DNA of 64,000 nt from a virus (Duplodnaviria; Caudoviricetes): positions 785 through 64,784 of IMG/VR virus record IMGVR_UViG_3300036985_004505. One strand, 5' to 3'. Below the pieces are notes generated by a model. It saw only the letters and a list, made by a program, of their open reading frames with translations. It ran no database searches and had not been told where the DNA came from. The first letter of the stretch is position 1; each line of letters begins with the position of its first letter. A program made the translations under genes and the position numbers. Positions 36,283 through 54,484 of this stretch are shown piece after piece.

Positions 36283-37050
36283 ATGAACTCAAAAGAAAAA
36301 GAATTGCTTAACGCAATTAACGGCACTGAGCGTATGTCAGGATTTGACTCTTACGCAGACGGTGATGATTCGTTCTTTGACGATAGCGACTTTGATGGCG
36401 ACTATGCGTTCGATGGCGACCAAATGTCTTACGCAGACGATATGTCTTACGCAGGAGGCAGTAGAGCACAAGCGGTTTCTGACCCTTATGTTATTCAATA
36501 CGACAATACGGCATTAGTTCCAGTAACGGCTATCCTTTTTGGATACAACGATTACTTTAATCAGCCGAATTTCGGTAACCCAGTATTAACAATTATTACC
36601 AACTTACAAACTGGTACTATCGCTGGTTATGGTCGTATGATTGCACAATCAAATAACAAGTTTTTTAAACTTGGTAAATGGCGTTTCCAATGTTCAACTC
36701 CAGCTCAGTTACAAATTACATTAAACATCAATCACGTTGATGCCAATGGTAAAACGTACACTTCGCCTTTGAACTTGTCAATTATGCGTGATGCTTATCA
36801 GCAACAACCTGATATTATCGATGTAACTAAACCAGTTACTATTGATGGTAACACGTTTATCACATTTACATTGTTAGCTGGTTCGGTATTTACAATTTCA
36901 ATGTTCCCAGTATCTGTTATTTCAGGTAAGGCTAAGTTGAATGGTGGTGCATCGTTAAATTCTGCAAGAGCACCTCGCTTGAGCGGTAAAAATGTTGCCC
37001 CAGTAATTATCCAAACTACGCAAGACGTAAAGGGTATCTCTGGACGCTAA
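36283..37050 (+). CDS. candidate major capsid protein (single jelly-roll-like)
   Basis: Acidic N-terminal extension plus a beta-strand-rich domain of about 150 aa. Codon usage looks like that of a highly expressed gene. Has its own terminator and a paralog at 42018. Confidence 0.55.
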   Translation: MNSKEKELLNAINGTERMSGFDSYADGDDSFFDDSDFDGDYAFDGDQMSYADDMSYAGGSRAQAVSDPYVIQYDNTALVPVTAILFGYNDYFNQPNFGNPVLTIITNLQTGTIAGYGRMIAQSNNKFFKLGKWRFQCSTPAQLQITLNINHVDANGKTYTSPLNLSIMRDAYQQQPDIIDVTKPVTIDGNTFITFTLLAGSVFTISMFPVSVISGKAKLNGGASLNSARAPRLSGKNVAPVIIQTTQDVKGISGR

Positions 37051-37070
37051 TTAGTTTTCAAGACTACTAT

Positions 37071-37108
37071 AAAAGAGGTGTGTGTATATTGCACACACCT
37101 TTTTTTTT
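37071..37108 (+). terminator. intrinsic terminator after the capsid candidate
   Basis: AGGTGTGTG-loop-CACACACCT followed by a T-run. Confidence 0.85.
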
Positions 37109-37128
37109 AACCTTTAAAAAACTAACAA

Positions 37129-37641
37129 GTGGCACGAAACAAAAACAAAACATATAAAACCCTATTATCCGTATTAGCTAATGGCAGTACAGAACAAGCA
37201 AGGGATTTATTAACAAGACATTCGGGCGGTGATGCCCAAGACGTAAAAGACCTTGAAATTAAACTTGCAAGGGTTTACGCCACATCATCAAATAAAAAAG
37301 ATATTGAGCGTGAGTTTGCTCAAATACACCCACACAAAGATTTTATTTTAAAATACGTTACCGCAAAAGAGGAAATTAAACCCCTTGAGGCAATACACGA
37401 CCAAGTGGTAAAGCCAATAGAAAATAGCGGTACTAAAAAAATGGTTATGGTACACGATGGTTATGCAAATGCAGATGGTTGTGAACAAACTTGCGGTTGC
37501 CCTAAATGTATGGGTTATTCAAATGCAAGTGGCGAACAACCGCAAAGCGTAGATAAAGGCAACCAAAACATAATGGTACTTGGAATAGTAAGCGTAGTAG
37601 CAATTTTAGGAATGGTACTTTACATAAATAAAAATAAATAG
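37129..37641 (+). CDS. C-terminally anchored virion membrane protein
   Basis: C-terminal TM, motifs YANADG and YSNASG. Confidence 0.7.
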   Translation: MARNKNKTYKTLLSVLANGSTEQARDLLTRHSGGDAQDVKDLEIKLARVYATSSNKKDIEREFAQIHPHKDFILKYVTAKEEIKPLEAIHDQVVKPIENSGTKKMVMVHDGYANADGCEQTCGCPKCMGYSNASGEQPQSVDKGNQNIMVLGIVSVVAILGMVLYINKNK

Positions 37642-37643
37642 AT

Positions 37644-38186
37644 ATGGGGATTGAAATTAAAATGGGCGAACCAATTGATGTAAGGCAAGAAGATAATACA
37701 ACGCTTGGTGAAGAGGTAAAAGTTATTGCCAATGCTAATGTATTAAAAGCAAATAAAGAGCATAAGAACTTTACAGAAACCGAAGAAGTTATCCCAGTAG
37801 GTACTACTTTATATGGTAGGACTATTATGGTTGATGGTTTACGCAGAGGGCAACCTTTTAAATATAGGTTGTTTAGTACAAACGATAAAAAAATTATACA
37901 CTTAAATAAAATAGAACCAATGAGAACAACAGAAGTATCCTTAGGGGCAGATGCCAAACAATCGCCGACAGTAGTAGATATGGCAAGACCAAAATTAAAC
38001 TTAACAAAGTGGACTATTGGCGGTGCATTAGCTGGTGCTGGTGCTGGATATTATTATTCAGCTAAAATGAAAAATATGGACAAAAAGAAAGTTATGATTT
38101 ACTCTATCGTGGGTTTAGTAGCTGGCTTTTATATTGGCAAGGCGATTGAAAAACGCAGACCAGTTAAAATTACACCAAGCAAATAA
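37644..38186 (+). CDS. membrane protein (SH3-like N-domain plus two Gly-rich TMs)
   Basis: IGGALAGAGAG and IVGLVAG helices, same architecture as 40091-40561. Confidence 0.7.
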   Translation: MGIEIKMGEPIDVRQEDNTTLGEEVKVIANANVLKANKEHKNFTETEEVIPVGTTLYGRTIMVDGLRRGQPFKYRLFSTNDKKIIHLNKIEPMRTTEVSLGADAKQSPTVVDMARPKLNLTKWTIGGALAGAGAGYYYSAKMKNMDKKKVMIYSIVGLVAGFYIGKAIEKRRPVKITPSK

Positions 38187-38204
38187 TTAAAAAAATAAAC
38201 AACT

Positions 38205-39431
38205 ATGGAACCAACAATAGTAACATTGTCGCCTTCATCTTCACCAATTAGCGTATCTTACGAAGAGGCTTTTGGCGAATATTCTGAATTAAGAGGTCGT
38301 GGTCGTGAACGCAGAAGAAAAAGACGCCAAGAAAGGCGTATGAAACGTATTCGTGATAGACAAGAAAGAAAACGAGCAAGGCAAGAAATGAGAGCCGAGC
38401 AACAAGAATCTCGTCAATTAAGAAAAGATAAACGCAAAAGCCGTAAAGTTGCTCGTAAAGCGATGGGCGAAGATGAGGAGTCTGAGGGGCAAGAGGGCTC
38501 AGGAGAAGATAGCGGAAGTGGTAGCAATGATGGTGGCGGTAGCGGAGCACAGAGTGATGATGGTGGTGGAGCACCAACGCCAACTGATGATGGCGGTGGA
38601 AATAATGGCGGTTACACTGGTGACGGTCCTGCAGAAGGGGAGTATCAAACAACCCAAGATGGCGATATGCAATCAGGTGATGAAGAGGCGGTAGACCAAG
38701 AGCAAGGTGAATCTGACGAAGAAAGCGGTTTTACTGGAGAGTTAGGCTTTGATGGTGTTATTGCAATGAGCCCTGAAGATGCCCAATGGGATGAGTACTT
38801 TAGTTCAGCTGAGGGTAAAAAAGCTATTAACCCCTTAGTTAAAAAACTTGCTTTACTTATTGAAAAAGAAAAACACTTTATAAGTGGTTTAAATAAAAAA
38901 CTTGAGAAGTTTAGCCGTTCTAAAATGAAAGGTTCGGGTAGAGCGGTTGCTATGTTAAGAAAAAGGTTAGCCCACCATACCTCAAGGTTAAAAAGGATGG
39001 AAATGCAACTTGCAAGATACTCACGTTTCGATGGTGATTATAGCGAGGCTCGTGGCGGTAGAAGAGGTGTTGCTCGTAAAAAAGCTGAAGTTAGACGTGC
39101 TAAAAAAGAGGCTCGTAAATTGCGTAAACAAGCTATCCGTAGCCGTAAACGTGGCACAGATGTTGATTCTGAGTTACAACCTGAATTTAGCGAACAAAGA
39201 ATCGAAGTGGGTGCAGAAGAAAGCAACTTTAGTGGCACTGGCTTAATTGGTTTAGATGAGCAATATGATATTGACGCACCTGAAACACGCAAGTTTGATT
39301 TAAAATTTTCTAATGTAGAGGGCGATGAGGCTAAAAAGAAAAAACGCAAAAAAATAATTATCGGTGTTTCTATTGGCATAGCGGTTGGCGTTTTAGCTAT
39401 CGTGTTAATTAAAAAATTCGGAAAAAAATAA
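38205..39431 (+). CDS. tail-anchored protein with alternating Arg/Lys-rich and acidic blocks (possible DNA-condensing core protein)
   Basis: RGRGRERRRKRRQERR block, acidic Gly-rich linker, C-terminal TM. Confidence 0.7.
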   Translation: MEPTIVTLSPSSSPISVSYEEAFGEYSELRGRGRERRRKRRQERRMKRIRDRQERKRARQEMRAEQQESRQLRKDKRKSRKVARKAMGEDEESEGQEGSGEDSGSGSNDGGGSGAQSDDGGGAPTPTDDGGGNNGGYTGDGPAEGEYQTTQDGDMQSGDEEAVDQEQGESDEESGFTGELGFDGVIAMSPEDAQWDEYFSSAEGKKAINPLVKKLALLIEKEKHFISGLNKKLEKFSRSKMKGSGRAVAMLRKRLAHHTSRLKRMEMQLARYSRFDGDYSEARGGRRGVARKKAEVRRAKKEARKLRKQAIRSRKRGTDVDSELQPEFSEQRIEVGAEESNFSGTGLIGLDEQYDIDAPETRKFDLKFSNVEGDEAKKKKRKKIIIGVSIGIAVGVLAIVLIKKFGKK

Positions 39432-39432
39432 A

Positions 39433-40089
39433 ATGGATAATAACTTCCACACTGAACTATCAAAGTATGTAAAAGCTAAAGATAACGAAAATGCCACTCG
39501 TGTAATTTTAAACGAGTTGGCAACTTCGCTTATTAAAGATAAAGAAAACTTCGTTGAGGTTTTGCGTAGTGCTGGGGTTAGCGTTTCTAATAATGACAAC
39601 GATGCTGATTTAATTGATAAGTTTGTAAAAAATGCACCAACTAACAAAGGGTTAATATTAGGGGCGTCATTACTTATTAACCACCGCAACCAATCAATTA
39701 ATTTTGATGGGGAAAGTGAAATAAGTGATGCTGGGGTTAAGGCAACCTACAAAGAACTTGACGAATATTTTAATTGTTGTGGCGAGGAGCATTCAAACGT
39801 AGCAGCCGCAATCGCTGGAATATTAAAGGGGGGTGTTGATTTAACTAATAAACTTGTTGAGGGTAAACAAAAAAAACAATTTGGTGTTAGTGACGCTTTA
39901 GCTAAACAACAAGATGCTCGTAAACAAATGATGCAAAATGTTATTGCCTCAAAACAAAAAGAAACTGACGAAAAGAATGCGAATGCAAGAAAGCAAAAAA
40001 AAATACTAATTATTGCTGGGGCAAGTGTTGTAGGTTTAGTTTTAATTATAGGGTTAGTAATGGTACTTAAAACAAATAAAGGAAAATAA
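39433..40089 (+). CDS. C-terminally anchored virion membrane protein
   Basis: C-terminal TM, INFDG motif. Confidence 0.7.
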   Translation: MDNNFHTELSKYVKAKDNENATRVILNELATSLIKDKENFVEVLRSAGVSVSNNDNDADLIDKFVKNAPTNKGLILGASLLINHRNQSINFDGESEISDAGVKATYKELDEYFNCCGEEHSNVAAAIAGILKGGVDLTNKLVEGKQKKQFGVSDALAKQQDARKQMMQNVIASKQKETDEKNANARKQKKILIIAGASVVGLVLIIGLVMVLKTNKGK

Positions 40090-40090
40090 A

Positions 40091-40561
40091 ATGGATTTTG
40101 TAGCAACAACAGATTTTGCAACGCCTTATGTAATTGCCACTGGGCAACCGCATAAACCAACGCAAATCTGTAAAAAACAATTTAAAAAGGGTGATATTAT
40201 AACTGGTGAGGTTAAGACTGTTAAAGGCAAACCGAGTTTTGTTTTACATAAAGGGGTGATGGTTATTCCATTTAGTTGCGTTAAACAAGTTGTTGTAAAA
40301 GACATCGTTGTAAGTAATTTAGATGGCACTTCTGATGCGGTAGCAAAAACAAACCCAAAAGTAGAAATGAAAGTTATTAAAACGGCTGACCAAAAAAATA
40401 GAGATTATTTCGGTGGCGTGTTGATTGGTGGTGCTTTGGGTTTTGGTGCGGTTATTTTAGCAGAAAAACAAGAGTGGTTAGCACCTGATAAAAAAAATAA
40501 AATGTATGGTATTGTTGTTGGTGCTATTATAGGCATATACTACATATATAAAAAAAAATAA
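40091..40561 (+). CDS. membrane protein (SH3-like N-domain plus two TMs)
   Basis: FKKGDII and SNLDG motifs, two Gly-rich TMs. Confidence 0.7.
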   Translation: MDFVATTDFATPYVIATGQPHKPTQICKKQFKKGDIITGEVKTVKGKPSFVLHKGVMVIPFSCVKQVVVKDIVVSNLDGTSDAVAKTNPKVEMKVIKTADQKNRDYFGGVLIGGALGFGAVILAEKQEWLAPDKKNKMYGIVVGAIIGIYYIYKKK

Positions 40562-40577
40562 TTTAAAATAAAGCATT

Positions 40578-41216
40578 ATGATAGTTAAAACAATAAACCC
40601 AGTAACAATTAACCGAAAAAGAATTAGTAAGCCAAGCGAATATTTAAGTGCTAATGGCGAAGATGAATTTTATGGTTTTGATGCAAACGGCAAACCTCAA
40701 ACTAAAGATGAAACAAAACAATTTCAAAATTGGTTAGATAGCAAATACCCAACGTGGTTAAATGGCGGTAAATTAAATGGAGGTACTGGTTATGGCACTT
40801 TTGGACCATCTACAACTAAAGCGTGGGGTACTTATGGCTCTGAGTTTGCAAAAACTTTAAACACTGGTACGCCAAGTGCAACACCAACGGCTGAACCCAC
40901 AAAAGATGAGGCTATTGCAAAAGCTAAATTAGGTCAAATTTGGGACAAAAACAAAGGCTGGATAACAAGCGATAAATCAAAAGAAGTTTTAAAAGTTTTA
41001 TTGGCTGGTGGTAGTGTAATGGATGCCATAAATAGTTTATTAGGCGGTGGTTCTGGTGGCGGAACAACTAATGATACAACAACAACAACAACAACGACAA
41101 CAGAAACTACAAAAGATGGTTTAAGCAAAAACGCTAAAATTGGTATTGCGGTAGGTGTCGTAGCGTTATTTGGTATAATCATTTATGCAGTAACTCGCCC
41201 AAAAACAAATAACTAA
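40578..41216 (+). CDS. tail-anchored protein with a peptidoglycan-binding-like domain
   Basis: FQNWLD...GTFGPSTTKAW, a Thr linker, and a GLSKNAKIGIAVG anchor. Confidence 0.65.
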   Translation: MIVKTINPVTINRKRISKPSEYLSANGEDEFYGFDANGKPQTKDETKQFQNWLDSKYPTWLNGGKLNGGTGYGTFGPSTTKAWGTYGSEFAKTLNTGTPSATPTAEPTKDEAIAKAKLGQIWDKNKGWITSDKSKEVLKVLLAGGSVMDAINSLLGGGSGGGTTNDTTTTTTTTTETTKDGLSKNAKIGIAVGVVALFGIIIYAVTRPKTNN

Positions 41217-42013
41217 TGGGATTCCCTATGCAAAAAGCGTACGAAAGCAACAACCGAAAAATGAGTTTGCACATAACTATTGTGTGCAAAGGAACTAAAA
41301 ACTTTCGTGTTTGGGCAGAAGAATTAGGCAAGAAAGATAGTAAATATGCTGATAGGGTAATTAATGTTACTAATAGCCGTACAATTCATTTTAATTTCCC
41401 AGTTAGCCCAAAAATGCTTTTTATTGGGTGCTTAAACGTGCAAAACATTAACGATAAAGATTTTGAGGTAACTATAAAAGAGGAGCCTTTAAAAACTTAC
41501 AATATTGTTATGGATAACGACACAAAAGATTTTGTTCAAATGGCAATTAATGTTAGTCAGACTATTGGCTTTGCACCGCCTCCACAAAACGGAATATTAT
41601 ACCAAACGCCTGACGCAAAGTTTAACATTAAAAACGTGCCAATGATAACCGATAAAATGAGCGGTCAAGTAATTGGTACACCAGCAAGAATTGGTCACAG
41701 TACTGGTCTTATAGAAGTGGCTTATGCAAGGTTTAAACAATATACAATACCTATGCGTTTGGCTATCCTTTTACACGAATATAGCCACAAATATAGAAAC
41801 CCAAAAATTGGATTGAAAATTAGCAATGAATTTGGAGCTGACATAAATGGTTTGTATATTTACCTCGGCATAGGTTTCTCAAAAGTTGATGCAATTTGTG
41901 TGTTTGCGGAAGTGTTTTTAAAAGCACAAACAGATGGCAATATGCAACGTATGAGGAAAATACAAGATTATATACAAAGGTTTGAAAATCAAGAGTACGC
42001 ACAAATAATGTAA
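41216..42013 (+). CDS. zincin-like metalloprotease
   Basis: ILLHEYSH (HExxH) followed by NEFGAD. Confidence 0.7.
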   Translation: MGFPMQKAYESNNRKMSLHITIVCKGTKNFRVWAEELGKKDSKYADRVINVTNSRTIHFNFPVSPKMLFIGCLNVQNINDKDFEVTIKEEPLKTYNIVMDNDTKDFVQMAINVSQTIGFAPPPQNGILYQTPDAKFNIKNVPMITDKMSGQVIGTPARIGHSTGLIEVAYARFKQYTIPMRLAILLHEYSHKYRNPKIGLKISNEFGADINGLYIYLGIGFSKVDAICVFAEVFLKAQTDGNMQRMRKIQDYIQRFENQEYAQIM

Positions 42014-42017
42014 AAAA

Positions 42018-42956
42018 ATGCAAGAACCAAACAATATATTTACAAGCGAGTCAGATTACCAACAATCAATAAATGGTAGTTATGACGATTTGTACGCAGA
42101 AGAGGAGTTTGGAAATGCCGATGGTGAAACGTATTTTGACGAAAACGATTTAAGTGATATTGATTTTAGCGATTTTAAAGGCAAGGATTTTAAAAGCAAA
42201 TTAAGAAAAGTTCATAAAACTTTAGCTAAAAAGAAAGTTGCTAAACCGCTTGATAAAGATTTCGTTGTAACAAAACGTGCAACATTATACGGAAAAAAAG
42301 GCGGTAGTGCTGAGGGTTTAAACACTAAGCGTATTATCGTGCCAAACACCCAAAAAGTAATTGTAGAGGGCGTAGATAAGTTTATTTTAGGTGACGATAA
42401 GTGTGGTATTAAAAATATTGGTTACTACAAGTGTAAGAAATTAAAAGAATTAATACTTACCATAAACAACAATTCTGCGGTAGATTTTAATTTAAACTTT
42501 TTTGACCCGAGTATGCCGTTAGATTATTTGTTTTCAACAAGCGGTAATTTAAACAACAAAATTCAGGTCGCTGGGGGCGTAGTTAGTTATTCAGATGTAT
42601 TGTTTAATATCCTTGCCAACCCTATGCACATTATTAATGCGAAATTTACGTTTGCAGGACCGACATACCAACAACAAATTAATCAGCCGTTAATTTTCAC
42701 AAACAAATCTGCGGTTGGTGAACAAAAAATAGAGCCTTTGCAATTACAATTACAAATTGATAATATGCAAGTTGCCAACGATATTGTGTTTTTTGAACTT
42801 GATAAACTTGGCAGACCATTTATCCCAAATGGAATGGATATCATTAAATACAGAGTTTTGGCTGGAAATACAATTACATTTGCTTTTTATTATAGGCAAA
42901 AAGACATTAGAAAATTATTTTACGAAGAGGCACGAAACGATAAAAAATTATTATAG
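42018..42956 (+). CDS. second capsid-protein candidate, paralog of 36283-37050
   Basis: The C-terminal domain aligns by eye with 36283-37050 (Q...L....G....PL....D..Q..DI....[DN]G...I...LAG). Acidic N-extension with FGNADG. Confidence 0.55.
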   Translation: MQEPNNIFTSESDYQQSINGSYDDLYAEEEFGNADGETYFDENDLSDIDFSDFKGKDFKSKLRKVHKTLAKKKVAKPLDKDFVVTKRATLYGKKGGSAEGLNTKRIIVPNTQKVIVEGVDKFILGDDKCGIKNIGYYKCKKLKELILTINNNSAVDFNLNFFDPSMPLDYLFSTSGNLNNKIQVAGGVVSYSDVLFNILANPMHIINAKFTFAGPTYQQQINQPLIFTNKSAVGEQKIEPLQLQLQIDNMQVANDIVFFELDKLGRPFIPNGMDIIKYRVLAGNTITFAFYYRQKDIRKLFYEEARNDKKLL

Positions 42957-44432: not shown

Positions 44433-44873
44433 ATGGGAATATTAACTGGCAAAGCAGACGTTATAGCAACTATGCCTCCTTTCAATAGTAAAGCAGAAAA
44501 TTGGATTCAATGGCACAAAGATTTAAAAAGTAATTTTGGAAATAAAGTTGCTAACGGAATATGGCTAAAAGCGTGGCGATTAAGAGGAAATTCAGATTGT
44601 AATACGTCTGAACTAAGAACTTATATGAAAAAACAAGGCGTAACGATTGATGCAAGTGGATGGGATAAATTTACCGATGCAACCTCAAGCGGTTTATCTA
44701 CGTTGTTTCAAATGAGCGCTACATCAAGTTTAATTATAACTGGAACATTAGTAGGTTTAACAGTTTATATTATTTACAAAGTATTAAAAAACCCAGATAG
44801 TGCTAAAAATGTAGTTATGATGGCTACGCCACAAGGGAGAGTGGCATCAATGGTAGGAGGGCTAAAAAAATGA
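44433..44873 (+). CDS. membrane protein
   Basis: Trp-rich N-domain plus a TM helix. Confidence 0.7.
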   Translation: MGILTGKADVIATMPPFNSKAENWIQWHKDLKSNFGNKVANGIWLKAWRLRGNSDCNTSELRTYMKKQGVTIDASGWDKFTDATSSGLSTLFQMSATSSLIITGTLVGLTVYIIYKVLKNPDSAKNVVMMATPQGRVASMVGGLKK

Positions 44874-45418
44874 AACTAACTAAAGGACAAATAGGCGGAA
44901 TTGTTGCTGGAGTTGTAGCAATATCTTTAATTACATTCGTTGTAATTCGCAGAAACAAAAACAAAAAGTTAATCAAAGAAATTAACGATATTTTGGATTC
45001 CAAAGTGCCAGACCCTAACAAGTCTGGTTCGCAAGTTATTTTGACACAAGCGCAATTAGGCACTTTACCGAATGGTAATTTCCCTTTAAAAATAGGGGAT
45101 AAAAATAAAAAAGTGTACGATGTGCAAATGGCTTTAAACAGAAAGTTTGGTAGCGGAATTGATGCAGATGGAAAGTACGGAGAAAGCACTTTTCAATCAA
45201 TGTGTTCAAACGTCTGGAATAAAGGCTTTGGAAGTTCATATTATGGTTCGTGTTTTAATGTAAATTTAACCTCAGCACCTACAAGGAGAATGATTACACA
45301 AACGGATTGGGCTAATTTACAAAAGTCAGCAAACTTTGATGGTGTCGGTGGCACTTCTGTTAGTAGTGATTATATGAATAACGTAATGGGTGAGCCGATA
45401 GTCGGTTTAGATATTTAA
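44870..45418 (+). CDS. membrane-anchored protein with a peptidoglycan-binding-like domain
   Basis: N-terminal TM, LKIGDKNKKVYDVQMALN...IDADGKYGEST, and an ANFDG motif. Confidence 0.7.
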   Translation: MKLTKGQIGGIVAGVVAISLITFVVIRRNKNKKLIKEINDILDSKVPDPNKSGSQVILTQAQLGTLPNGNFPLKIGDKNKKVYDVQMALNRKFGSGIDADGKYGESTFQSMCSNVWNKGFGSSYYGSCFNVNLTSAPTRRMITQTDWANLQKSANFDGVGGTSVSSDYMNNVMGEPIVGLDI

Positions 45419-47454: not shown

Positions 47455-47985
47455 ATGGAATCAGAATTAGGTAATGAGTTTATGAATGCCGATGGTATTA
47501 TAAACTACGAAGTAGCCAACGGACTGCAAAATATTGGCAACCAATATAACGAAAATTATATGTCGGCAAATGGCAATGATGAGTACTATAATGCCGATAA
47601 TGATAATGATGATTTTTACAACGCAGACGGCGATGACGATTATTACAATGCTGGTGGGTTGTTTAAAAACTTTCGTAAAAACCAAAAAATACGCCAAAAA
47701 AGACGTTCTGATAGGGCTAAATCAAAAGAAGAGGCACGGAAAACGAAGGCTCAAGCAAAATTAGTCCAAGCAGAATCACAAAAAGAATCTGCAAAACAGA
47801 TGGGTAAAGGTGCTGAGGCTGATTTAGAGTTGGCAAAATCACTTGGCAAAAACGCTGAACAACCAACTGAAAAAGGGTTAAGTAAGGGTATGAAAATTGG
47901 TATTGCCGTTGGGGTTGTACTTATTTTAGGTGTTGTCGGGTTTATTGTTTATAAAAAAATGGGTGCTAAAAAAGTAGGAAAATGA
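47455..47985 (+). CDS. tail-anchored protein: acidic NADG-repeat N-terminus plus basic block
   Basis: FMNADG, YMSANG, YYNADN, FYNADG, YYNAGG, and a KGLSKGMKIGIAVG anchor. Confidence 0.75.
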   Translation: MESELGNEFMNADGIINYEVANGLQNIGNQYNENYMSANGNDEYYNADNDNDDFYNADGDDDYYNAGGLFKNFRKNQKIRQKRRSDRAKSKEEARKTKAQAKLVQAESQKESAKQMGKGAEADLELAKSLGKNAEQPTEKGLSKGMKIGIAVGVVLILGVVGFIVYKKMGAKKVGK

Positions 47986-49247
47986 AAATAACAACAAGTT
48001 ATCCAGTAGTAATTAATGGGGTTGATAAAACGCCCGATTTATATTATGATAGTGCCGATGGTGAATTTTCGGAGGCACGAGGTAGAAAAAGGGGTCTTGG
48101 TAAAAAAATTAAGGCTAAACGTACTTCTAAAGTAAGGCAAGTGCCGTTAAAAAGACCTAATCGCCCAGTTAGTTTAAAAGGTACAAGGGTTATAACTTTG
48201 GGTACAAAACAAAACAATGTGTTAAAAGCACTTGACCGCCCCGAGTTTTATAATGCTGACGGCAATGACGAATATTACGATGCTGATGGTGGCGGTTTAA
48301 AAGTTTTTACAACCTATCCAGTAACCATAAATAAAAATAGAATTAGCCCTACCGATTATTTTTTAAACGCTGATGGCGAGGAGTACTTGCCGTTTGACGG
48401 ACAAACAGAATTATTGGGTTTTCGTGACGAATTAGGTGAAGAATATTTTTGCGGTATAGATGGTGAAGAGTTTTATAATGCTAAAGGCGAAAAACTAAAA
48501 GGTTTCTTTAAAAAAGTAGGTGGCGGTGTTGTTAAGGCTGGTAAGTTTATTGGCAAGGTTGCTAAAAAAGTTGGTAGAGCGATTGTTAAAGCGTCTAAAA
48601 GCGTTGTTAAAGGCGTAAAAACGGCTGGAGGGAAAGTTAAGGCTGGTGCAAAAAAATTAATACACCACAAAACACCAGAAGAAAAAGCAAAATCTAAAGG
48701 CGATAGGGATAAAAAACGTGCCGATAGAGTAAAAGAGCATAACGATAAAAAAGCTAAAAGGGATAAGGAAATTGCTGATGCAAAAGCAAAAGGGCAAACG
48801 CCCCCACCACCTTTACCCCCTTTACCACCACAAACCCCACAAGAAAAAGAGGAGGAGTTAAAATTAACGCAAACAGAAAAAAAAGTAGGGCAAAGTGCAG
48901 ATACTGGAGGAGATGTTTTTACCAAAGAATTACCACCAGCAACACCAAATACACCACCCGAAAATGTTGTTGATGTAAATGGTGTTAAATACGATGCAAC
49001 CGATATACCAAAAGGCAAAGAGATTGTTGAAACAATTGATGAAAGTGGCAAAAAAATAGCTGGGGTTGAGTTTAAGCCTGAAGAGGTTGTAGCCGTTACA
49101 GGAAAAGATGGCAACATTGAATATTACACTCCAGATGCACAAGGTATGAGTAAGGGTTTAAAAATTGCCCTTGTTGTTGGCGGTGCGGTTGTACTTTTGG
49201 CGGTAGCTTATTTTATATTTAGACCTAAAGGCAAAACATCTTCATAA
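47982..49247 (+). CDS. tail-anchored protein with NADG repeats, a basic amphipathic block and a Pro-rich linker
   Basis: Multiple [NS]ADG motifs and a QGMSKGLKIALVVGG anchor. Confidence 0.75.
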   Translation: MKITTSYPVVINGVDKTPDLYYDSADGEFSEARGRKRGLGKKIKAKRTSKVRQVPLKRPNRPVSLKGTRVITLGTKQNNVLKALDRPEFYNADGNDEYYDADGGGLKVFTTYPVTINKNRISPTDYFLNADGEEYLPFDGQTELLGFRDELGEEYFCGIDGEEFYNAKGEKLKGFFKKVGGGVVKAGKFIGKVAKKVGRAIVKASKSVVKGVKTAGGKVKAGAKKLIHHKTPEEKAKSKGDRDKKRADRVKEHNDKKAKRDKEIADAKAKGQTPPPPLPPLPPQTPQEKEEELKLTQTEKKVGQSADTGGDVFTKELPPATPNTPPENVVDVNGVKYDATDIPKGKEIVETIDESGKKIAGVEFKPEEVVAVTGKDGNIEYYTPDAQGMSKGLKIALVVGGAVVLLAVAYFIFRPKGKTSS

Positions 49248-49292: not shown

Positions 49293-49961
49293 ATGGCACT
49301 ATCAAAAAAATTAGACAAAATGTACAAAGCCATCGGGAAAGGTGAGCGTACAAGCAAAACATTTGCAACTATCCGTATGACTGACGGCAGAACTTTTAAA
49401 CGTAAAAATGCTAACCAATATGGCGATGCCGAGGGTGGTAATGATTATGTTGAAAATCGTGTTAATCGTACTGACCTTTACCCAAAGGATGCTCGTAAAA
49501 AAATTATGGAGACTGGTGGTGGCGTTGGTAGAAGTGGGTGGGCAAAAGCTACCGACAAAATGTACAAAGCGATTGGCAAGGGCGAACGTACAAGTAGTAC
49601 ATTTGCAACTATACGCAAAACAGATGGCACTTCTTTTAAACGCAGAAACGCTAACCAATATGGTAACGCTGAGGGTGGCAACGACTACGTTGAAAATCGT
49701 GTAAACCGCACCGATGCTTACCCAAATGATAAGCGTAAAAAAGTAATGGCGAATGGTGGTGGTTTAGCAAACACGACTGAAAGTACTCCAGCTAACGATA
49801 ATATGAGCTTTAGAAGTGGCGGTAAAATGCCAGCTAAGAAAAAAGCTACAAAAAAAACACCATTACAAGTTTACAAAAAAGAGCAACACGATGCTATGTT
49901 TAATAGTGAATATGGGCAAGGTGGTACAATGGAGTGCTGTTACACTATCGGTGGGCTTTAA
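49293..49961 (+). CDS. basic protein with a tandem internal duplication
   Basis: Two copies of DKMYKAIGKGERTS...NANQYG.AEGGNDYVENRVNRTD, ends YTIGGL. Confidence 0.8.
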   Translation: MALSKKLDKMYKAIGKGERTSKTFATIRMTDGRTFKRKNANQYGDAEGGNDYVENRVNRTDLYPKDARKKIMETGGGVGRSGWAKATDKMYKAIGKGERTSSTFATIRKTDGTSFKRRNANQYGNAEGGNDYVENRVNRTDAYPNDKRKKVMANGGGLANTTESTPANDNMSFRSGGKMPAKKKATKKTPLQVYKKEQHDAMFNSEYGQGGTMECCYTIGGL

Positions 49962-49967
49962 TAGGTT

Positions 49968-50644: not shown

Positions 50645-50704
50645 TTCGTTGGCAAGTAGATAAAAAAAGTTATTTTTGTAACTTAACAATTTAAACAAAA
50701 AAAT

Positions 50705-50932: not shown

Positions 50933-50938
50933 AATAAA

Positions 50939-53833
50939 ATGGGAGCAAATAGGACTGAAATATTTAACGTAACACGCCTAACTGCGCCAGTTACTTATGT
51001 TGTAAAAAGTGCGGATGATATGATTGATGTAGATACATCTTCAGGTGGGTTGACTACTATTTACATTCCAAACATAGTCCAAAATGGCTTAAATTTAGTT
51101 GGTAAAACTTACACTATTAACGATGTTAGTAACAATGCGAGTGTTGGAAATATAACAATTATATGTTTAAACGGCGACACTATTAACAACTTTCCAGCCC
51201 TTACTTTAAGTACCGATGGCATTAGTGCCAATATTATACAAGTTGACCGCACACGTTATTTAGCAACGACTAATATAGCTGGAGGCACTTCTTCTGTTTT
51301 ATTAATACCAATTACATACGCTCAACTTGTTAGCCTTATTGGTTCTGGTGGCTTAATTGCTGGTCAAAAATACCTATTAACAGATTACGAAACTATTTAC
51401 GACCAACCCGATTACGATAGTTTAGGAAACCCTAAAGCCGTTGTAAATACAAATACTGGAGCGGTTGAGCCTTTAATTTTAGAGGCGGTATCAAGCACCG
51501 ATATTTCAAGCGTTGTTCAATCAACAATTTACCCAAGTGATTTAATTGAATATAATTGGAATTTTCAAAATACAGAATATAGCGGAAAGCCAGCAAAGGG
51601 CTTTATTACAGGCCGAACTATACCAGTTGGAAATACATTAAGTAATTTTTTAAGAACGCCTTACGATTTAAGAGCAGTAGTTTTTAAAAGGTATTTCAAT
51701 CCTATTAACGGCAATTTCAATATTGTAAACGATAATGGTTTAGCATCAGTAAATAATTTGCCTACTTTCGGTAATGGTTGCTATAACATTTACTTAGACG
51801 ATAATATTTTACCAACAACTCCTCAACCATTTTTATTGACTAATAATGTTTTTGGTAAGAATTGTAAAAATATTAAAACTGGGTATCAATTTGTGGGTAA
51901 CAGTATTGGTGTTGATTGCGATAATATGAGTTTTGGAGATACTTGTCGTTATAATATATTAAACAACAAGGCATCTAATAATATTATATGTAATAACTTT
52001 TCTTTTAATGTAATATCTGATAGTTTTTCAAACAACCAAATAGCTAATGGTTTTTTGCAAAACGAAATAGGCAATAGGTTTATTTTAAACGAAATTGGGG
52101 GTAATTTCGCTTATAATGTAATAACAAAAGGTTTTGATAATAATATTATTGGGGATAATTTTCAAAATAATATAATTTCGGATGATTTTAAGCAAAACCA
52201 TATAGGAGAAAACTTTAATTTTAACACAAATATTGATAAAAATTTTATTAGTAATGTAATTGGAAATGATTTTGCTAATAATTTTCCTATTGGTGTTAAT
52301 TTTAATTATAACCATATTGGCGATGGTTTTGCAAATAACGAAATAGGGAATTATTTTGGTTCTATCAATAATACAATTACTATTGTTCCAGTTGGCAACA
52401 TAATCGGTAACTTTTTTAATGGCAATTTAATAGGAGATAATTTTTACGGAAACAATATTCAAAATTTCTTTCAATCAAACACAATAAGTAGCATTTTTGC
52501 ATCTAATAAAATCGGAAATGGTTTTAGGGACAACGATACTACTGGCGAGTTTGAAAGCAACCAGATAGGCGATATATTTCGTTTTAACACGCCTATTGGA
52601 GCAAAGTTCAACAACAATAACATAGGCGATAGGTTTTTTCAAAATTCAAATATTGGTGGCAATTTTGATTCAAACCAAATAGGAAATTATTTTACCTTAA
52701 ATACAAATATTGGAAGTGGTTTTGTTCGCAACGTAATTGGTAATGATTTTAAAAATAATTCTGCTATTGGACAAGACTTTGTAGCTAATCATATAGGAAA
52801 TCATTTTCAAAACAATAACATAGGCGATAATTTTGGTGGCGATGGTAGAGAACAATATGGCAACATAATAGGCAACTTTTTCCAAGAAAACACTATATCA
52901 AGCGATGGGTTTTTTAGCAATAATATTGGCAATTATTTTTCTGCAAATGTAATAGGTGGTAATTTTGATAACAACTTAATTCAGAATAACTTTACAAATA
53001 ATACAACTTTAGGTGGTTTTTCCAGCAATCGAATAGGTAATAGCTTTATCGGTAATATCAATATAGATAATGGCTTTACATCAAATGATATAGGCGATAG
53101 ATTTGAAAATAACGATACTATTGGAATAGCTTTTCAAAACAATGTAATTGGCAATTTATTTACTGGAAACACTAATATAGGCACAAGTTTTACTGGCAAT
53201 AAAATCGGTTATTTTTTTACTAACAACACTAACATAGGAGATAACTTTTCAAACAATGTTATTTTAAATAGTTTTGTAAATAATATAAACATAGGAATAG
53301 GTTTTACAAGTAATAAAATAGCCTCTGATTTTATTGGCAACGCTATTGCTGATTCGTTTAGCAATAATACAATTAACGATTATTTTGATGGAAATACAAT
53401 AGGCATAGGTTTTAACTCAAACGAAATAGGTCTTAGTTTTCAAGCCAATGTTATATCAACCTCATATAATACTAATATAATTAAAGACAATTTTGTCGGT
53501 AACACTATTGGCACGAACTTTTATCAAAACGATATTAAAACTAATTTTCAAGGAAATGGCATAGGGGATATGTTTAATAATAATATAATAGGTAATAGTT
53601 TTGTAAGTAACATAAATATTGGCAACAATTTTCAATTAAACAATATAGTGACAGCCATTGTAGGTTACGATTTTAGCCTTGCTACTTATGTATATGGAGG
53701 CTATACAAAAAACATATTTTTAGCCGTTGATAGTGCCACATCAATAACAACTGATTATTTAGAATATTTTGATACAAACCCTATGTTTATAGGTTCTCCA
53801 AAATGGGTATATATAACACCAATTAATTCATAA
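50939..53833 (+). CDS. long spike/fibre-like protein with NxIG beta-solenoid repeats
   Basis: Dozens of roughly 11-aa F..N.IG repeats, and an ITYAQL..LI....L..GQKY..TDY head domain. Confidence 0.7.
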   Translation: MGANRTEIFNVTRLTAPVTYVVKSADDMIDVDTSSGGLTTIYIPNIVQNGLNLVGKTYTINDVSNNASVGNITIICLNGDTINNFPALTLSTDGISANIIQVDRTRYLATTNIAGGTSSVLLIPITYAQLVSLIGSGGLIAGQKYLLTDYETIYDQPDYDSLGNPKAVVNTNTGAVEPLILEAVSSTDISSVVQSTIYPSDLIEYNWNFQNTEYSGKPAKGFITGRTIPVGNTLSNFLRTPYDLRAVVFKRYFNPINGNFNIVNDNGLASVNNLPTFGNGCYNIYLDDNILPTTPQPFLLTNNVFGKNCKNIKTGYQFVGNSIGVDCDNMSFGDTCRYNILNNKASNNIICNNFSFNVISDSFSNNQIANGFLQNEIGNRFILNEIGGNFAYNVITKGFDNNIIGDNFQNNIISDDFKQNHIGENFNFNTNIDKNFISNVIGNDFANNFPIGVNFNYNHIGDGFANNEIGNYFGSINNTITIVPVGNIIGNFFNGNLIGDNFYGNNIQNFFQSNTISSIFASNKIGNGFRDNDTTGEFESNQIGDIFRFNTPIGAKFNNNNIGDRFFQNSNIGGNFDSNQIGNYFTLNTNIGSGFVRNVIGNDFKNNSAIGQDFVANHIGNHFQNNNIGDNFGGDGREQYGNIIGNFFQENTISSDGFFSNNIGNYFSANVIGGNFDNNLIQNNFTNNTTLGGFSSNRIGNSFIGNINIDNGFTSNDIGDRFENNDTIGIAFQNNVIGNLFTGNTNIGTSFTGNKIGYFFTNNTNIGDNFSNNVILNSFVNNINIGIGFTSNKIASDFIGNAIADSFSNNTINDYFDGNTIGIGFNSNEIGLSFQANVISTSYNTNIIKDNFVGNTIGTNFYQNDIKTNFQGNGIGDMFNNNIIGNSFVSNINIGNNFQLNNIVTAIVGYDFSLATYVYGGYTKNIFLAVDSATSITTDYLEYFDTNPMFIGSPKWVYITPINS

Positions 53834-53843
53834 AACAACCAAA

Positions 53844-54179
53844 ATGAACACAGAACATTTAGCATTAGAAAAACACTTAAAAAAATCAACAATTACAAGT
53901 AATTTAGTAAGCGTTTTTATAGCATTATTAACGGCATTAAGCGTTGGTTATGGTTTTTACTACAATACTAACAACACGCTTGATAGCCACACGATACAAA
54001 TTAAAGAGGTTAAAACAGACGTTGAAAGTTTAAAAGATGCCGTAAATAATTCGGCAATTTTTCAAGGTGCAACTGGAGAACAAATTAAAGCGGTTGAGGT
54101 ACAAGTAAACGATGTTAAAGCATCACAAATTCGTATTGAGGAAAAACTTGATAGATTAATTTTAAGGGCAACAAAATGA
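53844..54179 (+). CDS. TM plus coiled-coil protein (holin/hemolysin-like)
   Basis: Single TM, then heptads ending RIEEKLDRL. Confidence 0.55.
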   Translation: MNTEHLALEKHLKKSTITSNLVSVFIALLTALSVGYGFYYNTNNTLDSHTIQIKEVKTDVESLKDAVNNSAIFQGATGEQIKAVEVQVNDVKASQIRIEEKLDRLILRATK

Positions 54180-54484
54180 TAGTAAAAACAGATAACCCAG
54201 TAATATATTCCAACGCTTTTGGCGATGGTGCTTTGCGTGATAAATTTAAAGGCTTTATTGAAAAAGCTAAAGGCTCTGGTGGTTTAATGGACAAGGCTAA
54301 AGGCTTACTTGGGGGTTTAGGCGGAGGCGGTCAACAACAACAGCAACAAGCTACTTTACCACCACCACCACCACCGAAACCAAAAGGGATGAGTAAAAAC
54401 CTTAAAATCGGCTTAATTGTTGGCGGTAGTATTTTGGTGCTTGGCATTATTGCCGTTATAATTATAAAATCAAAAAACAAATGA
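54176..54484 (+). CDS. tail-anchored membrane protein
   Basis: MIVKTDNPVIYSNAFG N-motif and a KGMSKNLKIGLIVGG anchor. Confidence 0.75.
   Translation: MIVKTDNPVIYSNAFGDGALRDKFKGFIEKAKGSGGLMDKAKGLLGGLGGGGQQQQQQATLPPPPPPKPKGMSKNLKIGLIVGGSILVLGIIAVIIIKSKNK

What the first reader, a model, noticed from the sequence alone, without database searches (positions are those of the whole stretch)
36283..54484. Shared [FY]x[NSG][AF]xG ('NADG/FDG') motif across about twelve structural proteins, a candidate maturation cleavage or docking signal
Seen: SYADG/DFDG/AFDG (36283), YANADG/YSNASG (37129), GFDG/FSSAEG/YSEARG/FSNVEG (38205), INFDG (39433), SNLDG (40091), YLSANG (40578), FGNADG (42018), ANFDG (44870), five copies in 47455, about eight in 47982, and YSNAFG (54176). 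The motifs lie in low-complexity linkers, often between an acidic leader and a folded or basic region. I did not notice them in the replication genes. A HExxH zincin (41216) sits in the middle of these genes. Inference: a virus-wide proteolytic maturation code, analogous to adenovirus or poxvirus precursor processing, or a short linear motif that binds the capsid interior.
Basis: partly seen in the sequence, partly recalled or inferred. Interest (0 to 1): 0.85.

Follow-up and report, generated by a model that had tools for sequence, protein, structure and literature searches.

The report
Shared peptide signal in virion proteins
A six-residue peptide motif recurs far above chance in the capsid-type and membrane-anchored proteins of an uncultured, apparently tailless bacterial virus that also carries its own zinc protease, so it is probably a cutting or docking signal for building the particle, though neither cutting nor binding has been shown.

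Summary
Observation confirmed. A pattern scan blind to the motif puts Y..A.G first among non-repeat patterns in the late genes: 14 seen, 1.6 expected.

The motif is better written as Phi-(S)-x-[A/F/L/V]-x-G. It lies in acidic segments predicted to be disordered. It keeps its position in orthologs of 10 related viral contigs, and in capsid-family members only 25-35% identical to the window's protein.

It is common in tail-anchored and soluble late proteins and rare in proteins with an N-terminal anchor. Motif clusters fall at acid-to-basic junctions (15 of 106, against 3.2 for random positions).

ORF 41216 is a credible M48/M78-like gluzincin with invariant HExxH...NExxAD. It is present in all 30 loci found through the capsid gene that have enough downstream sequence.

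Interpretation partly supported. I favour a recognition and cleavage signal for this protease (about 0.4) over an uncleaved docking motif (about 0.3). No cleavage or binding is shown, and the one complex prediction gave no verdict. This scan noted the same motif with an HExxH protease earlier on other DNA (e1-5901018). I found no published description.

The parts
36283..37050 (+). Capsid-type protein 1 (MCP1 candidate, 255 aa). It has an N-terminal helix, an acidic disordered leader with motif copies, and a jelly-roll-like core. Motif copies: MSGFDS 36334-36351, DSYADG 36346-36363, DYAFDG 36400-36417, MSYAGG 36442-36459.
   Evidence: AF2 model: helix 3-18, residues 19-60 with pLDDT below 50, core 61-230 with pLDDT above 90. 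Structural matches are weak, to viral jelly rolls (best Z 6.4, PR772 6q5u_O). S19 and G59 are among the 16 columns conserved at 90% or more in 48 diverse homologs. Orthologs keep M/F-S-Y/F-A-S/G/D-G just before the core.
37129..37641 (+). Tail-anchored protein (170 aa). YANADG 37462-37479; YSNASG 37516-37533, about 15 aa before the C-terminal membrane helix.
   Evidence: Orthologs keep xSN[AF]xG-type copies in the Cys-rich linker.
38205..39431 (+). Tail-anchored protein with acidic and basic blocks (408 aa). Copies: YEEAFG 38259-38276, YSELRG 38280-38297, FSSAEG 38799-38816, YSRFDG 39018-39035, YSEARG 39039-39056, FSNVEG 39306-39323.
   Evidence: Orthologs keep the N-terminal FGE[FY]S[EQ][AL]RGRGR, the middle pair and the copy next to the membrane helix. 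The copies sit at acid-to-basic junctions.
39433..40089 (+). Tail-anchored protein (218 aa). SINFDG 39694-39711.
   Evidence: 10 of 11 orthologs keep x-x-[NGS]-[FA]-x-G at this column.
40091..40561 (+). Membrane protein (156 aa). VSNLDG 40310-40327, between a conserved N-terminal domain and the membrane helices.
   Evidence: 10 of 11 orthologs keep x-S-[NSAK]-[AFL]-x-G here; one has D in place of G.
40578..41216 (+). Tail-anchored protein (212 aa) with an N-terminal MIVKTINPVTIN strand. YLSANG 40641-40658.
41216..42013 (+). Candidate motif reader (265 aa): N-terminal beta-sandwich (residues 1-93) plus a C-terminal gluzincin domain. HEYSH 41774-41788; NEFGAD (E205, A208, D209) 41825-41842.
   Evidence: H187, E188, H191, E205, A208 and D209 are invariant in 29 sequences. 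AF2 mean pLDDT is 90.3. VIA-align gives BepA 6sar Z 7.5 over residues 119-259 and 3c37 Z 6.2. The nearest named ESM Atlas clusters carry Peptidase_M48/M78. It has 583 homologs, all unnamed. No Pfam or PHROG hit.
42018..42956 (+). Capsid-type protein 2 (MCP2 candidate, 312 aa). Order: acidic leader, motif, basic arm, core. FGNADG 42108-42125; FSDFKG 42165-42182.
   Evidence: D49, F50, S51 and G55 are invariant in 11 orthologs, while the leader varies in length. Weak profile relation to MCP1 (E 1e-4 to 6e-6).
44870..45418 (+). Protein with an N-terminal membrane helix (182 aa). SANFDG 45326-45343. A weak, outlying copy.
   Evidence: This class of protein otherwise has a motif density of 0.24 per 1000 aa.
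47455..47985 (+). Tail-anchored protein (176 aa) with five copies in its acidic N-terminal 70 aa, followed by a basic block. Copies: FMNADG 47479-47496, YEVANG 47506-47523, YMSANG 47557-47574, FYNADG 47614-47631, YYNAGG 47641-47658.
   Evidence: Charge changes from -2 to +8 across the last cluster.
47982..49247 (+). Tail-anchored protein (421 aa) with eight copies in residues 22-169: YDSADG, FSEARG, FYNADG, YYDADG, FLNADG, YLPFDG, FCGIDG, FYNAKG. They span 48045-48488.
   Evidence: The ESM Atlas's own model of this protein has pTM 0.16 and mean pLDDT 0.41, so it is predicted disordered.
49293..49961 (+). Soluble, internally duplicated protein (222 aa). YGDAEG 49419-49436; YGNAEG 49659-49676.
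54176..54484 (+). Tail-anchored protein (102 aa) with an N-terminal MIVKTDNPVI strand. YSNAFG 54206-54223.

Best explanation
Phi-(S)-x-[A/F/L/V]-x-G, most often [FYM]-S-N-A-D-G with D/E flanks, is a conserved short linear motif. It sits in disordered, mostly acidic segments of the late proteins that face the cytoplasm and capsid: the N-terminal leaders of the two capsid-type proteins and the cytoplasmic parts of a dozen tail-anchored membrane proteins.

I commit to this mechanism: the motif is the recognition and cleavage signal of the module's own M48/M78-like zinc protease (ORF 41216). During or after particle assembly the protease would cut acidic leaders away from the capsid cores and from basic arms, and could release some domains from their membrane anchors. 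Before cleavage the leader plus motif may also act as a targeting tag, as in phage T4 and adenovirus pVI.

Shown here: the motif is real, specific to one side of the membrane, conserved in position, and polarised from acid to basic. The zincin has a complete catalytic signature and always accompanies the capsid gene.

Inferred: that the zincin reads the motif, that cleavage occurs, and where the scissile bond lies.
For: 1. Enrichment and specificity: 16 late against 1 early hit, with 0 of 1000 shuffles reaching 16. Y..A.G is the top non-repeat pattern in an unbiased scan.

2. Replication in relatives. Downstream of MCP1, with a stricter regex, 9 of 10 related contigs lie above their block-shuffle mean; 6 have 0 of 300 shuffles reaching the observed count, 3 have 2 to 11 of 300, and L016 has no hit. 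Upstream of MCP1 there are 0 hits in all 10.

3. Conservation of position amid divergent flanks:
- MCP2: D49, F50, S51 and G55 are invariant in 11 orthologs.
- MCP1: S19 and G59 are conserved at 90% or more in 48 homologs that go down to about 25% identity.
- 12 distant MCP1 homologs keep ..FSG[AFM][DN]G and [FY]xxA.G.
- Distant contigs L031 and L032 (MCP1 33-35% identical) again have a run of tail-anchored proteins with [FY]S[NG]A.G.

4. Protease: HExxH-x13-NExxAD is invariant in 29 sequences. The fold and language-model neighbours are M48/M78. The gene lies 4.7-8.1 kb downstream of MCP1 in 16 of 16 and 12 of 12 loci found through MCP1 that have enough downstream sequence, and in 2 of 2 full records of the distant pair. 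The 8 loci without it are cut short. The family scans found no other endopeptidase family among the window's proteins (only 25 of 35 families are shown).

5. Polarity: motif clusters sit at acid-to-basic junctions in 15 of 106 cases, against a mean of 3.2 (maximum 10) for random positions in the same proteins (0 of 500 reach 15). The reverse order occurs 3 times, against 2.7 by chance. This is the layout of an acidic propeptide that masks a basic arm.

6. In MCP1 the last copy ends 9 residues before the conserved core Pro. A leaderless paralog in a close relative starts 16 residues before that Pro.

7. Half of the copies lie within the first 60 residues, like N-terminal leaders.

8. Sidedness: motif density is 3.84 per 1000 aa in tail-anchored proteins and 1.39 in soluble late proteins, against 0.24 in proteins with an N-terminal anchor and 0.18 in upstream genes.

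9. From my own knowledge, the known virus-wide short motifs in structural precursors are protease sites: adenain, poxvirus I7, ASFV pS273R, T4 gp21 and phiKZ gp175. The adenovirus passages I read are in PMC3386624.
Against: - No cleavage product, neo-N-terminus or proteomic datum exists for this virus or any relative.
- Many copies are tandem with a modal spacing of 7 residues (18 pairs). That is unnecessary for a cleavage site and typical of multivalent binding motifs.
- Only Gly is near-invariant. The positions that would flank a scissile bond vary (position 3: N 23%; position 5: D 22%).
- The zincin has no Pfam or PHROG hit. Its structural matches (Z 7.5 and 6.2) lie below the level the tool calls safe.
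- Nothing shows that the zincin is in the particle or acts on viral proteins. It could act on host or envelope targets.
- Cutting at the copies next to the membrane helix would detach whole ectodomains, which may or may not be intended.
- The motif-to-zincin link rests on co-occurrence within one clade where both are universal, so it cannot discriminate.
Confidence: 0.4

Rival explanations
1. The motif is an uncleaved docking motif. It binds a repeated site on the inner face of the capsid lattice, or on another common hub such as the beta-sandwich of 41216. Membrane-anchored proteins with one to eight copies would then tie the internal membrane to the shell by avidity, and the capsid leaders would use the same site for contacts between capsomers.
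For: - Multi-copy tandem arrays with 7-9 residue spacing in disordered acidic segments.
- Copies next to the membrane helix in 37129 and 38205.
- Restriction to the capsid-facing side of membrane proteins.
- Some MCP1-family members replace the acidic leader with an N-terminal hydrophobic helix: 7 of the 99 leaders without a motif. This suggests the N-terminus of this capsid fold points at the membrane.
- Precedents, from my own knowledge: encapsulin cargo-loading peptides and the C-terminal tails of scaffolding proteins. Adenovirus pVI binding the hexon cavity is in passages of PMC3386624.
Against: - It does not explain the acid-to-basic polarity.
- It does not explain why a catalytically intact zincin is a universal neighbour.
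- No binding partner is identified.
Confidence: 0.3
2. The motif is a cohesive low-complexity element: aromatic, small-residue and Gly segments like LARKS or FG repeats. Together with alternating acidic and basic blocks it would form a gel-like matrix, similar to a tegument, between the membrane and the shell, with no dedicated receptor.
For: - The composition (aromatic, S/N, A, G) and the disordered context.
- The block-charge architecture of 38205, 47455 and 47982.
- The motif is present on both sides of the presumed interface: capsid leaders and membrane proteins.
Against: - Strict positional conservation of single copies, such as the invariant D-F-S-x-x-x-G of MCP2, is unusual for generic cohesive repeats.
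- The strongly acidic flanks disfavour self-association.
- The idea rests only on resemblance recalled from my own knowledge.
Confidence: 0.12
3. The motif is a calcium-binding turn of the EF-hand or DxDxDG type that bridges acidic leaders to the membrane or to each other.
For: - The context is rich in Asp, Asn and Gly, and D-G is frequent.
- From my own knowledge, some membrane-containing marine phages depend on calcium.
Against: - Position 1 of the motif is aromatic or Met, not Asp.
- Position 5 is Asp in only 22% of copies and can be R, K, F, S or I.
- The DxDxDG register therefore cannot be fitted.
Confidence: 0.05
4. The motif has no function of its own. The recurrence would reflect shared ancestry of paralogous leaders plus local amino-acid composition.
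For: - 40578, 47455, 47982 and 54176 do share N-terminal or pre-anchor signatures and are probably paralogs.
- The segments are compositionally biased.
Against: - 20-aa block shuffles that keep local composition never reach the observed count (0 of 1000).
- The motif also occurs in proteins with no other detectable similarity to one another: MCP1, MCP2, 37129, 39433, 40091 and 49293.
- Motif columns are the conserved islands in otherwise variable linkers.
Confidence: 0.03

Closest known systems
Adenovirus protease (adenain) and its consensus sites in precursors pIIIa, pVI, pVII, pVIII, pX/mu and pTP
   Same: One short motif with a hydrophobic anchor and an obligatory Gly is shared by many structural and core precursors of a jelly-roll virus. 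Leaders are removed from basic proteins. pVI both docks in the hexon cavity and is cut. This comes from passages of PMC3386624; the site consensus itself I recall and did not read.
   Different: Adenain is a cysteine protease of a eukaryotic virus. Here the candidate is a gluzincin of a bacterial virus. The motif is one residue longer (Phi-x-x-small-x-G), it also occurs in tandem arrays, and no cleavage is shown.
Phage T4 gp21 with capsid-targeting sequences; phiKZ/201phi2-1 head protease (recalled, not read here)
   Same: N-terminal leaders on unrelated virion proteins end in a short consensus that the virion protease cuts. Scaffold-type proteins are chopped at many sites.
   Different: Those are HK97-fold tailed phages with serine (assemblin-type) proteases and sites ending in Glu. 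This virus shows no terminase, portal or HK97-type gene in the scans run.
M48/M78 minimal gluzincins (BepA/YfgC 6sar; putative peptidase 3c37; ImmA/IrrE-type phage peptidases)
   Same: HExxH with a downstream NExxAD-type Glu helix. The helical catalytic domain aligns over 116-118 residues (Z 7.5 and 6.2). The nearest named ESM Atlas clusters carry PF01435 or PF06114.
   Different: There is no Pfam hit at E up to 0.01. It is fused to an N-terminal beta-sandwich, the His-to-Glu spacer is only 13 residues, and it lies in a virion module rather than beside a repressor or in the envelope quality-control machinery.
Encapsulin cargo-loading peptides (recalled)
   Same: A short conserved peptide on otherwise unrelated proteins that docks on the inside of a protein shell.
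   Different: Those peptides are usually single and terminal and are not cleaved. Here the copies are often internal, tandem and polarised in charge, and the shell proteins carry them too.
   Same: The same consensus, the same protein classes (capsid-like and membrane proteins) and an embedded zinc protease. It matches the FSGADG form I see in distant MCP1 homologs.
   Different: It lies on other DNA. It is an AI note that I did not re-test on its own sequence.

Membership tests
Gluzincin metallopeptidase, M48/M78-like (for ORF 41216) | HExxH zinc-binding and catalytic motif | tested here: met
   H187, E188 and H191 are invariant in 29 sequences.
Gluzincin metallopeptidase, M48/M78-like (for ORF 41216) | Third zinc ligand Glu on a downstream helix, in an (N)ExxAD/SD-type motif (signature recalled from my own knowledge) | tested here: met
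   N204-E205-x-x-A208-D209: E205, A208 and D209 are invariant, on helix 205-218 of the model.
Gluzincin metallopeptidase, M48/M78-like (for ORF 41216) | Catalytic-domain fold shared with solved M48 peptidases | tested here: inconclusive
   BepA 6sar: Z 7.5, rmsd 4.7, 118 aligned. 3c37: Z 6.2, 116 aligned. Both lie below the tool's safe mark of 8. ESM Atlas TM-scores are 0.56-0.58 to Peptidase_M48/M78 clusters.
Gluzincin metallopeptidase, M48/M78-like (for ORF 41216) | Match to the Pfam model PF01435 or PF06114 | tested here: not met
   No Pfam family at E up to 0.01. No PDB sequence match below E 0.2.
Viral maturation-protease cleavage code (adenain, T4 gp21 type) | One short consensus shared by several structural precursors, placed at leader or domain boundaries | tested here: met
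   12 late ORFs carry it. Half of the copies lie in the first 60 aa. Copies sit at acid-to-basic junctions and just before the MCP1 core.
Viral maturation-protease cleavage code (adenain, T4 gp21 type) | A protease encoded in the structural module | tested here: met
   41216 lies between the tail-anchored genes and MCP2. It is present in every MCP1-found locus with enough downstream sequence.
Viral maturation-protease cleavage code (adenain, T4 gp21 type) | Demonstrated cleavage at the motif; protease packaged in the particle | not testable with these tools
   No cultured isolate: no match in 50,697 phage records. No proteomic data.
Shell-docking targeting peptide (encapsulin cargo-loading type) | Short conserved peptide on unrelated cargo proteins | tested here: met
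Shell-docking targeting peptide (encapsulin cargo-loading type) | Physical binding to the inner face of the shell protein | not testable with these tools
   Needs binding assays or a particle structure.
EF-hand / DxDxDG calcium-binding loop | Asp/Asn at positions 1, 3 and 5 with Gly at position 6 (definition recalled) | tested here: not met
   With Gly fixed at position 6, position 1 is F, Y or M by definition of the motif, and position 5 is Asp in only 22% of 297 copies.
Bacteroidota general O-glycosylation sequon D-(S/T)-(A/I/L/V/M/T) (definition recalled) | D-S/T-aliphatic tripeptide within the motif | tested here: not met
   Only 1 of the 30 window copies listed (YDSADG) contains it.

The most novel reading that the evidence does not exclude
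These viruses would be the first prokaryotic jelly-roll, membrane-lined viruses with a virus-wide proteolytic maturation programme. It would be run by a metalloprotease rather than the cysteine proteases of adenoviruses, poxviruses and giant viruses. One six-residue code would first target capsid and tail-anchored membrane proteins to the space under the capsid. It would then direct removal of acidic leaders, unmasking basic arms that clamp the shell, membrane and genome together. That would be an independent reinvention of the adenovirus logic in a bacterial virus.
Probability: 0.35. Interest if true: 0.8.

Novelty: new variant of a known kind. Interest (0 to 1): 0.6.

Why it matters
Maturation by a virion protease is treated as a trait that the jelly-roll virus lineage gained in eukaryotic viruses (passages of PMC6260650). 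In the passages of PMC3185693 that I read, PRD1 is described as assembling without a temporary scaffold.

A conserved recognition motif plus an intact gluzincin would extend programmed precursor processing, or at least motif-based targeting, to bacterial tailless viruses. The group is widespread and uncultured: the capsid family holds 786 clusters at 50% identity and the zincin has 583 homologs.

It also gives a simple, testable handle: one peptide and one enzyme. That handle bears on how a 60-100 kb virus couples its shell to an internal membrane.

Practically, the motif marks which unannotated proteins belong to the layer under the capsid.

Tried and rejected
- **Complex prediction**. Chains were the zincin, the MCP1 core, the MCP2 core and residues 1-72 of 47455 as partner. 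The score was 0.00 in both runs, so the result is 'no answer'. The controls were not folded. It says nothing for or against binding.
- **Cultured relatives.** Megablast of 36000-56000, and tblastn of MCP1 and of the zincin, against 50,697 phage records all gave no match.
- **Known families.** Pfam and PHROGs on the structural proteins returned only DUF2793 and tail-fibre-like hits for 42960 and 56188, Peptidase_M15 for 57695, and weak HerA/FtsK hits for 32280.
- **Sequence search of solved structures** with the zincin profile: nothing below E 0.2.
- **Foldseek of the zincin** against PDB and BFVD: only beta-sandwich hits and poor full-length matches to baculovirus enhancins (TM 0.2-0.24), which I do not rely on.
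- **ESM Atlas on 47982, residues 1-180:** no usable hit.
- **Natural experiment that failed.** I wanted to ask whether viruses whose MCP1 lacks the acidic leader also lack the motif and the zincin.
  - Alignments A5 and A6 were too diverse for the search for related loci.
  - The narrower leaderless alignment A8 found nothing in viral contigs or genome contigs.
  - In metagenome contigs A8 returned only leader-bearing close relatives.
  - The only leaderless copy seen in context, L077, is an extra paralog in a close relative on a contig that ends right after it.
- **Rejected on register or count:** calcium loop, O-glycosylation sequon, and a DNA-level repeat. A C-terminal sorting signal of the sortase or exosortase type is also rejected, because only two proteins have the motif near the anchor.
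- **Literature.** Seven full-text searches found no paper on this virus group, on a metalloprotease in a membrane-containing phage, or on this motif. I saw only listings and abstracts for those. I read passages of PMC6260650, PMC3386624 and PMC3185693. Supplementary files were not opened, and none bears on a claim here.

Full report
**Context.** The window is almost all of a 64.8-kb linear IMG/VR virus record.
- Genes run on the + strand to about 59.4 kb.
- The first 36 kb encode replication and DNA-modification functions: DnaB-like helicase, Tet/JBP, RusA, HNH and polyvalent-type proteins.
- From 36.3 kb onward lies a block with no Pfam or PHROG identity apart from fibre-like domains and an M15 peptidase.
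- No terminase, portal or HK97-type family appeared in any scan. ORF 32280 gives weak HerA/FtsK-type hits.
- Most late proteins have a single C-terminal membrane helix.
- Relatives are binned with Bacteroidota MAGs such as Saprospiraceae and Flavobacteriaceae. None is in a collection of 50,697 phage records.
- This agrees with other first-stage notes on the same stretch, which read it as a tailless, membrane-lined virus.

ORF 49293 is a further carrier.
Whole-protein shuffles average 1.6 and 20-residue block shuffles 1.9. Neither reaches 16 in 1000 trials.
- The regex was fitted by eye, so I also scanned every three-residue gapped pattern against local composition. After the patterns produced by the internal repeat of ORF 50939, the strongest late-gene pattern is Y..A.G (14 observed, 1.6 expected, p about 1e-9). 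The early genes have nothing better than p about 5e-6.
- The copies use different synonymous codons, so this is a protein signal.

**What the motif is.**
- From 297 loosely defined copies in the window and 20 related loci, the fixed positions are 1 (F/Y/M), 4 (A, less often F) and 6 (G).
- The free positions have preferences: Ser at 2 (34%, 5-fold over background), Asn at 3 (23%), Asp at 5 (22%), and D/E at positions -2, -1 and +7.
- In ortholog alignments position 4 also takes L, V, I or M. Position 1 can be a non-aromatic residue in some proteins.
- Tandem copies are common, and their modal spacing is 7 residues (18 pairs).
- The motif region of MCP1 is predicted disordered: residues 19-60 have pLDDT below 50, between an N-terminal helix and a confident beta-sandwich core. 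The ESM Atlas model of the eight-copy protein 47982 is also disordered (pLDDT 0.41).

**Conservation.**
- Ten distinct related contigs (zincin 51-64% identical) share the gene order.
- Downstream of MCP1, 9 of 10 lie above their block-shuffle mean with the stricter regex. Six have 0 of 300 shuffles reaching the observed count, three have 2 to 11 of 300, and L016 has no hit. Upstream genes have 0 hits in all ten.
- Position is kept while the flanks drift:
  - MCP1 orthologs all carry M/F-S-Y/F-A-x-G just before the core.
  - MCP2 keeps D-F-S-x-Phi-x-G, with D49, F50, S51 and G55 invariant, behind a leader of very variable length.
  - 40091 keeps x-S-N-[AFL]-x-G in 10 of 11 orthologs.
  - 39433 keeps x-x-N-F-D-G in 10 of 11 orthologs.
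- A profile search with MCP1 found 786 clusters.
- In 48 leader-bearing members, down to about 25% identity, S19 and G59 (both motif residues) are among only 16 columns conserved at 90% or more.
- Twelve distant members all show helix-FSG[AFM][DN]G ... [FY]xxA.G-core.
- Two distant contigs (MCP1 33-35% identical) again have MCP1 followed by a run of tail-anchored proteins carrying [FY]S[NG]A.G.
- Of the 150 best representatives, I could anchor the core in 136. Of these, 37 have a motif in the leader (mean leader charge -7.9) and 99 do not (mean charge +0.1). Seven of the 99 have a hydrophobic N-terminal stretch. The anchoring regex is crude.

**Where it sits.**
- Across the window and 12 related loci, motif density per 1000 aa is:

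| Protein class | Density |
|---|---|
| Upstream or opposite-strand genes | 0.18 |
| Soluble late proteins | 1.39 |
| Tail-anchored proteins | 3.84 |
| Proteins with one N-terminal membrane helix | 0.24 |

- In the last class the bulk of the protein lies on the far side of the membrane. The fibre or spike-like proteins (42960, 50939, 56188) have no real copy. The motif therefore marks polypeptide on the cytoplasmic, capsid-facing side.
- Motif clusters are also polarised. The mean charge of the 20 residues before a cluster is -1.25 and of the 20 after it +1.33.
- 15 of 106 clusters sit at a clear acid-to-basic junction, against a mean of 3.2 (maximum 10) for random positions in the same proteins (0 of 500 reach 15). 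The reverse order occurs 3 times, against 2.7 by chance.
- Examples are MCP2 (-7 to +8), 47455 (-2 to +8), 47982 (0 to +10) and 38205.

**The HExxH gene.**
- ORF 41216 folds with high confidence (pLDDT 90.3) into an N-terminal beta-sandwich (residues 1-93) and a helical domain.
- H187, E188, H191, E205, A208 and D209 are invariant in 29 sequences. This gives HExxH followed 13 residues later by NExxAD, the gluzincin arrangement as I recall it.
- The helical domain aligns with BepA (6sar: Z 7.5, 118 residues) and a putative M48-like peptidase (3c37: Z 6.2). These values are below the tool's comfort level.
- The nearest named ESM Atlas clusters carry Peptidase_M48 or M78 (scores 0.90-0.93; TM 0.56-0.58).
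- Pfam, PHROGs and PDB sequence searches find nothing.
- It has 583 homologs of about 261 aa, all unnamed.
- In loci found through MCP1, not through the zincin, it is present in 16 of 16 and 12 of 12 with enough downstream DNA, and in both full records of the distant pair. The 8 loci without it are truncated. Some loci are duplicates of one contig, so these are not 30 independent cases.
- The family scans found no other endopeptidase family in the window, though one search shows only 25 of 35 families.

**Mechanism.**
- Two readings survive. I favour recognition and cleavage by the zincin (0.4). The reasons are:
  - the enzyme looks active and is a universal neighbour;
  - the motif sits where a propeptide junction would be, namely before the MCP1 core, between acidic leaders and basic arms, and within the first 60 residues in half the cases;
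  - position 4 is hydrophobic, as gluzincin S1' pockets prefer (my own knowledge, weak);
  - every virus-wide motif of this kind that I know of is a protease site.
- A leaderless MCP1 paralog in a close relative starts 16 residues before the conserved core Pro. In the window's MCP1 the last motif Gly lies 9 residues before it.
- Against this reading, tandem heptad copies make little sense as cut sites, only Gly is truly fixed, and nothing shows cutting.
- The docking rival (0.3) explains the multivalency and the copies beside the membrane helix. It does not explain the charge polarity or the enzyme.
- The two could be combined as dock first, then cut, as in T4 and adenovirus pVI.
- A cohesive-matrix reading (0.12), a calcium loop (0.05, register fails) and chance or paralogy (0.03, block shuffles and cross-family conservation argue against) complete the list.

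**Known or new.**
- Seven literature searches found no description of this group, motif or enzyme.
- This scan had already noted the same consensus with an HExxH protease on another genome (e1-5901018). It had also noted a zincin beside a capsid-type gene with aromatic-x-Gly leaders in a Bacteroidota element (e1-5261547). These are unchecked AI notes that agree with my reading, not independent evidence.
- I class the finding as a new variant of a known kind: a targeting and processing code for virion proteins.

**Limits.**
- Gene calls and the early/late border are my own.
- The motif definitions were derived on the same clade on which they were tested.
- Relatives are phylogenetically linked.
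- The assignment of these proteins to the particle rests on gene order and topology, not on proteomics.

Noticed in passing
L077:9962-10552 (+): A close relative (packaging-type ATPase 73% identical) carries an extra 196-aa MCP1-family paralog with no acidic leader. It lies directly after the ATPase gene, and the contig ends soon after. The window has no such copy. It might be a vertex or penton protein.
   Followed up: partly
Proteins P0199, P0216, P0235, P0259, P0167, P0174, P0232, P0251: Some MCP1-family members replace the acidic leader with an N-terminal hydrophobic, membrane-helix-like stretch placed straight before the jelly-roll core. This suggests a capsid-type protein anchored directly in the membrane.
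   Followed up: partly
window 40578-40640, 47982-48044, 48303-48359, 54176-54205: A second shared element lies upstream of the motif: an N-terminal strand M-x-[IV]-x-T-x-x-P-V-x-I-N. It occurs in 40578, 47982 (twice, once internal) and 54176, and 38205 has a MEPTIVTLSP variant. It may be the body of a targeting leader.
   Followed up: partly
window 41130-41160, 47880-47910, 49150-49180, 54380-54410 (approximate): The four tail-anchored proteins 40578, 47455, 47982 and 54176 share the signature G-[LM]-S-K-[GN]-x-K-I-[GA] immediately before the membrane helix. Relatives have G-M-S-T-G-x-K-I. This overlaps another first-stage note.
   Followed up: no
window 50939-53833 (+): A 964-aa protein built of about 40 copies of an N-x-I-G-x-x-F repeat. 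It produces the strongest patterns in the unbiased scan (IG..F: 39 observed against 2.7 expected). It has no Pfam hit and no motif copies. It is probably an external fibre or spike.
   Followed up: no
window 37462-37533 (+): Between the two motif copies of 37129 lies a Cys-rich stretch (C-x3-C-x-C-x2-C). Orthologs expand it into several CxxC pairs. It may be a small zinc-binding knuckle beside the membrane anchor.
   Followed up: no
window 35071-35841 (+): A weak family-2 glycosyltransferase match (E 1.8e-4) lies directly upstream of MCP1 and is syntenic in most relatives. I considered and rejected glycosylation as the role of the motif. The enzyme's target is unknown.
   Followed up: partly
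L035 (record G002, 74663-74842, - strand): The distant relative G002 has a second, partial match to the C-terminal 60 residues of the zincin (E 2e-9) about 47 kb from the full copy.
   Followed up: no
window 49293-49961 and 54758-55921 (+): 49293 is an internal duplication of about 80 residues, and each half carries one motif copy. 49293 and 54758 both end in Y/E-x-I-G-G-L. This was noted by another first-stage entry together with a [FYM]xxGG motif in the polyvalent-type proteins. It could be a second, separate signal.
   Followed up: no
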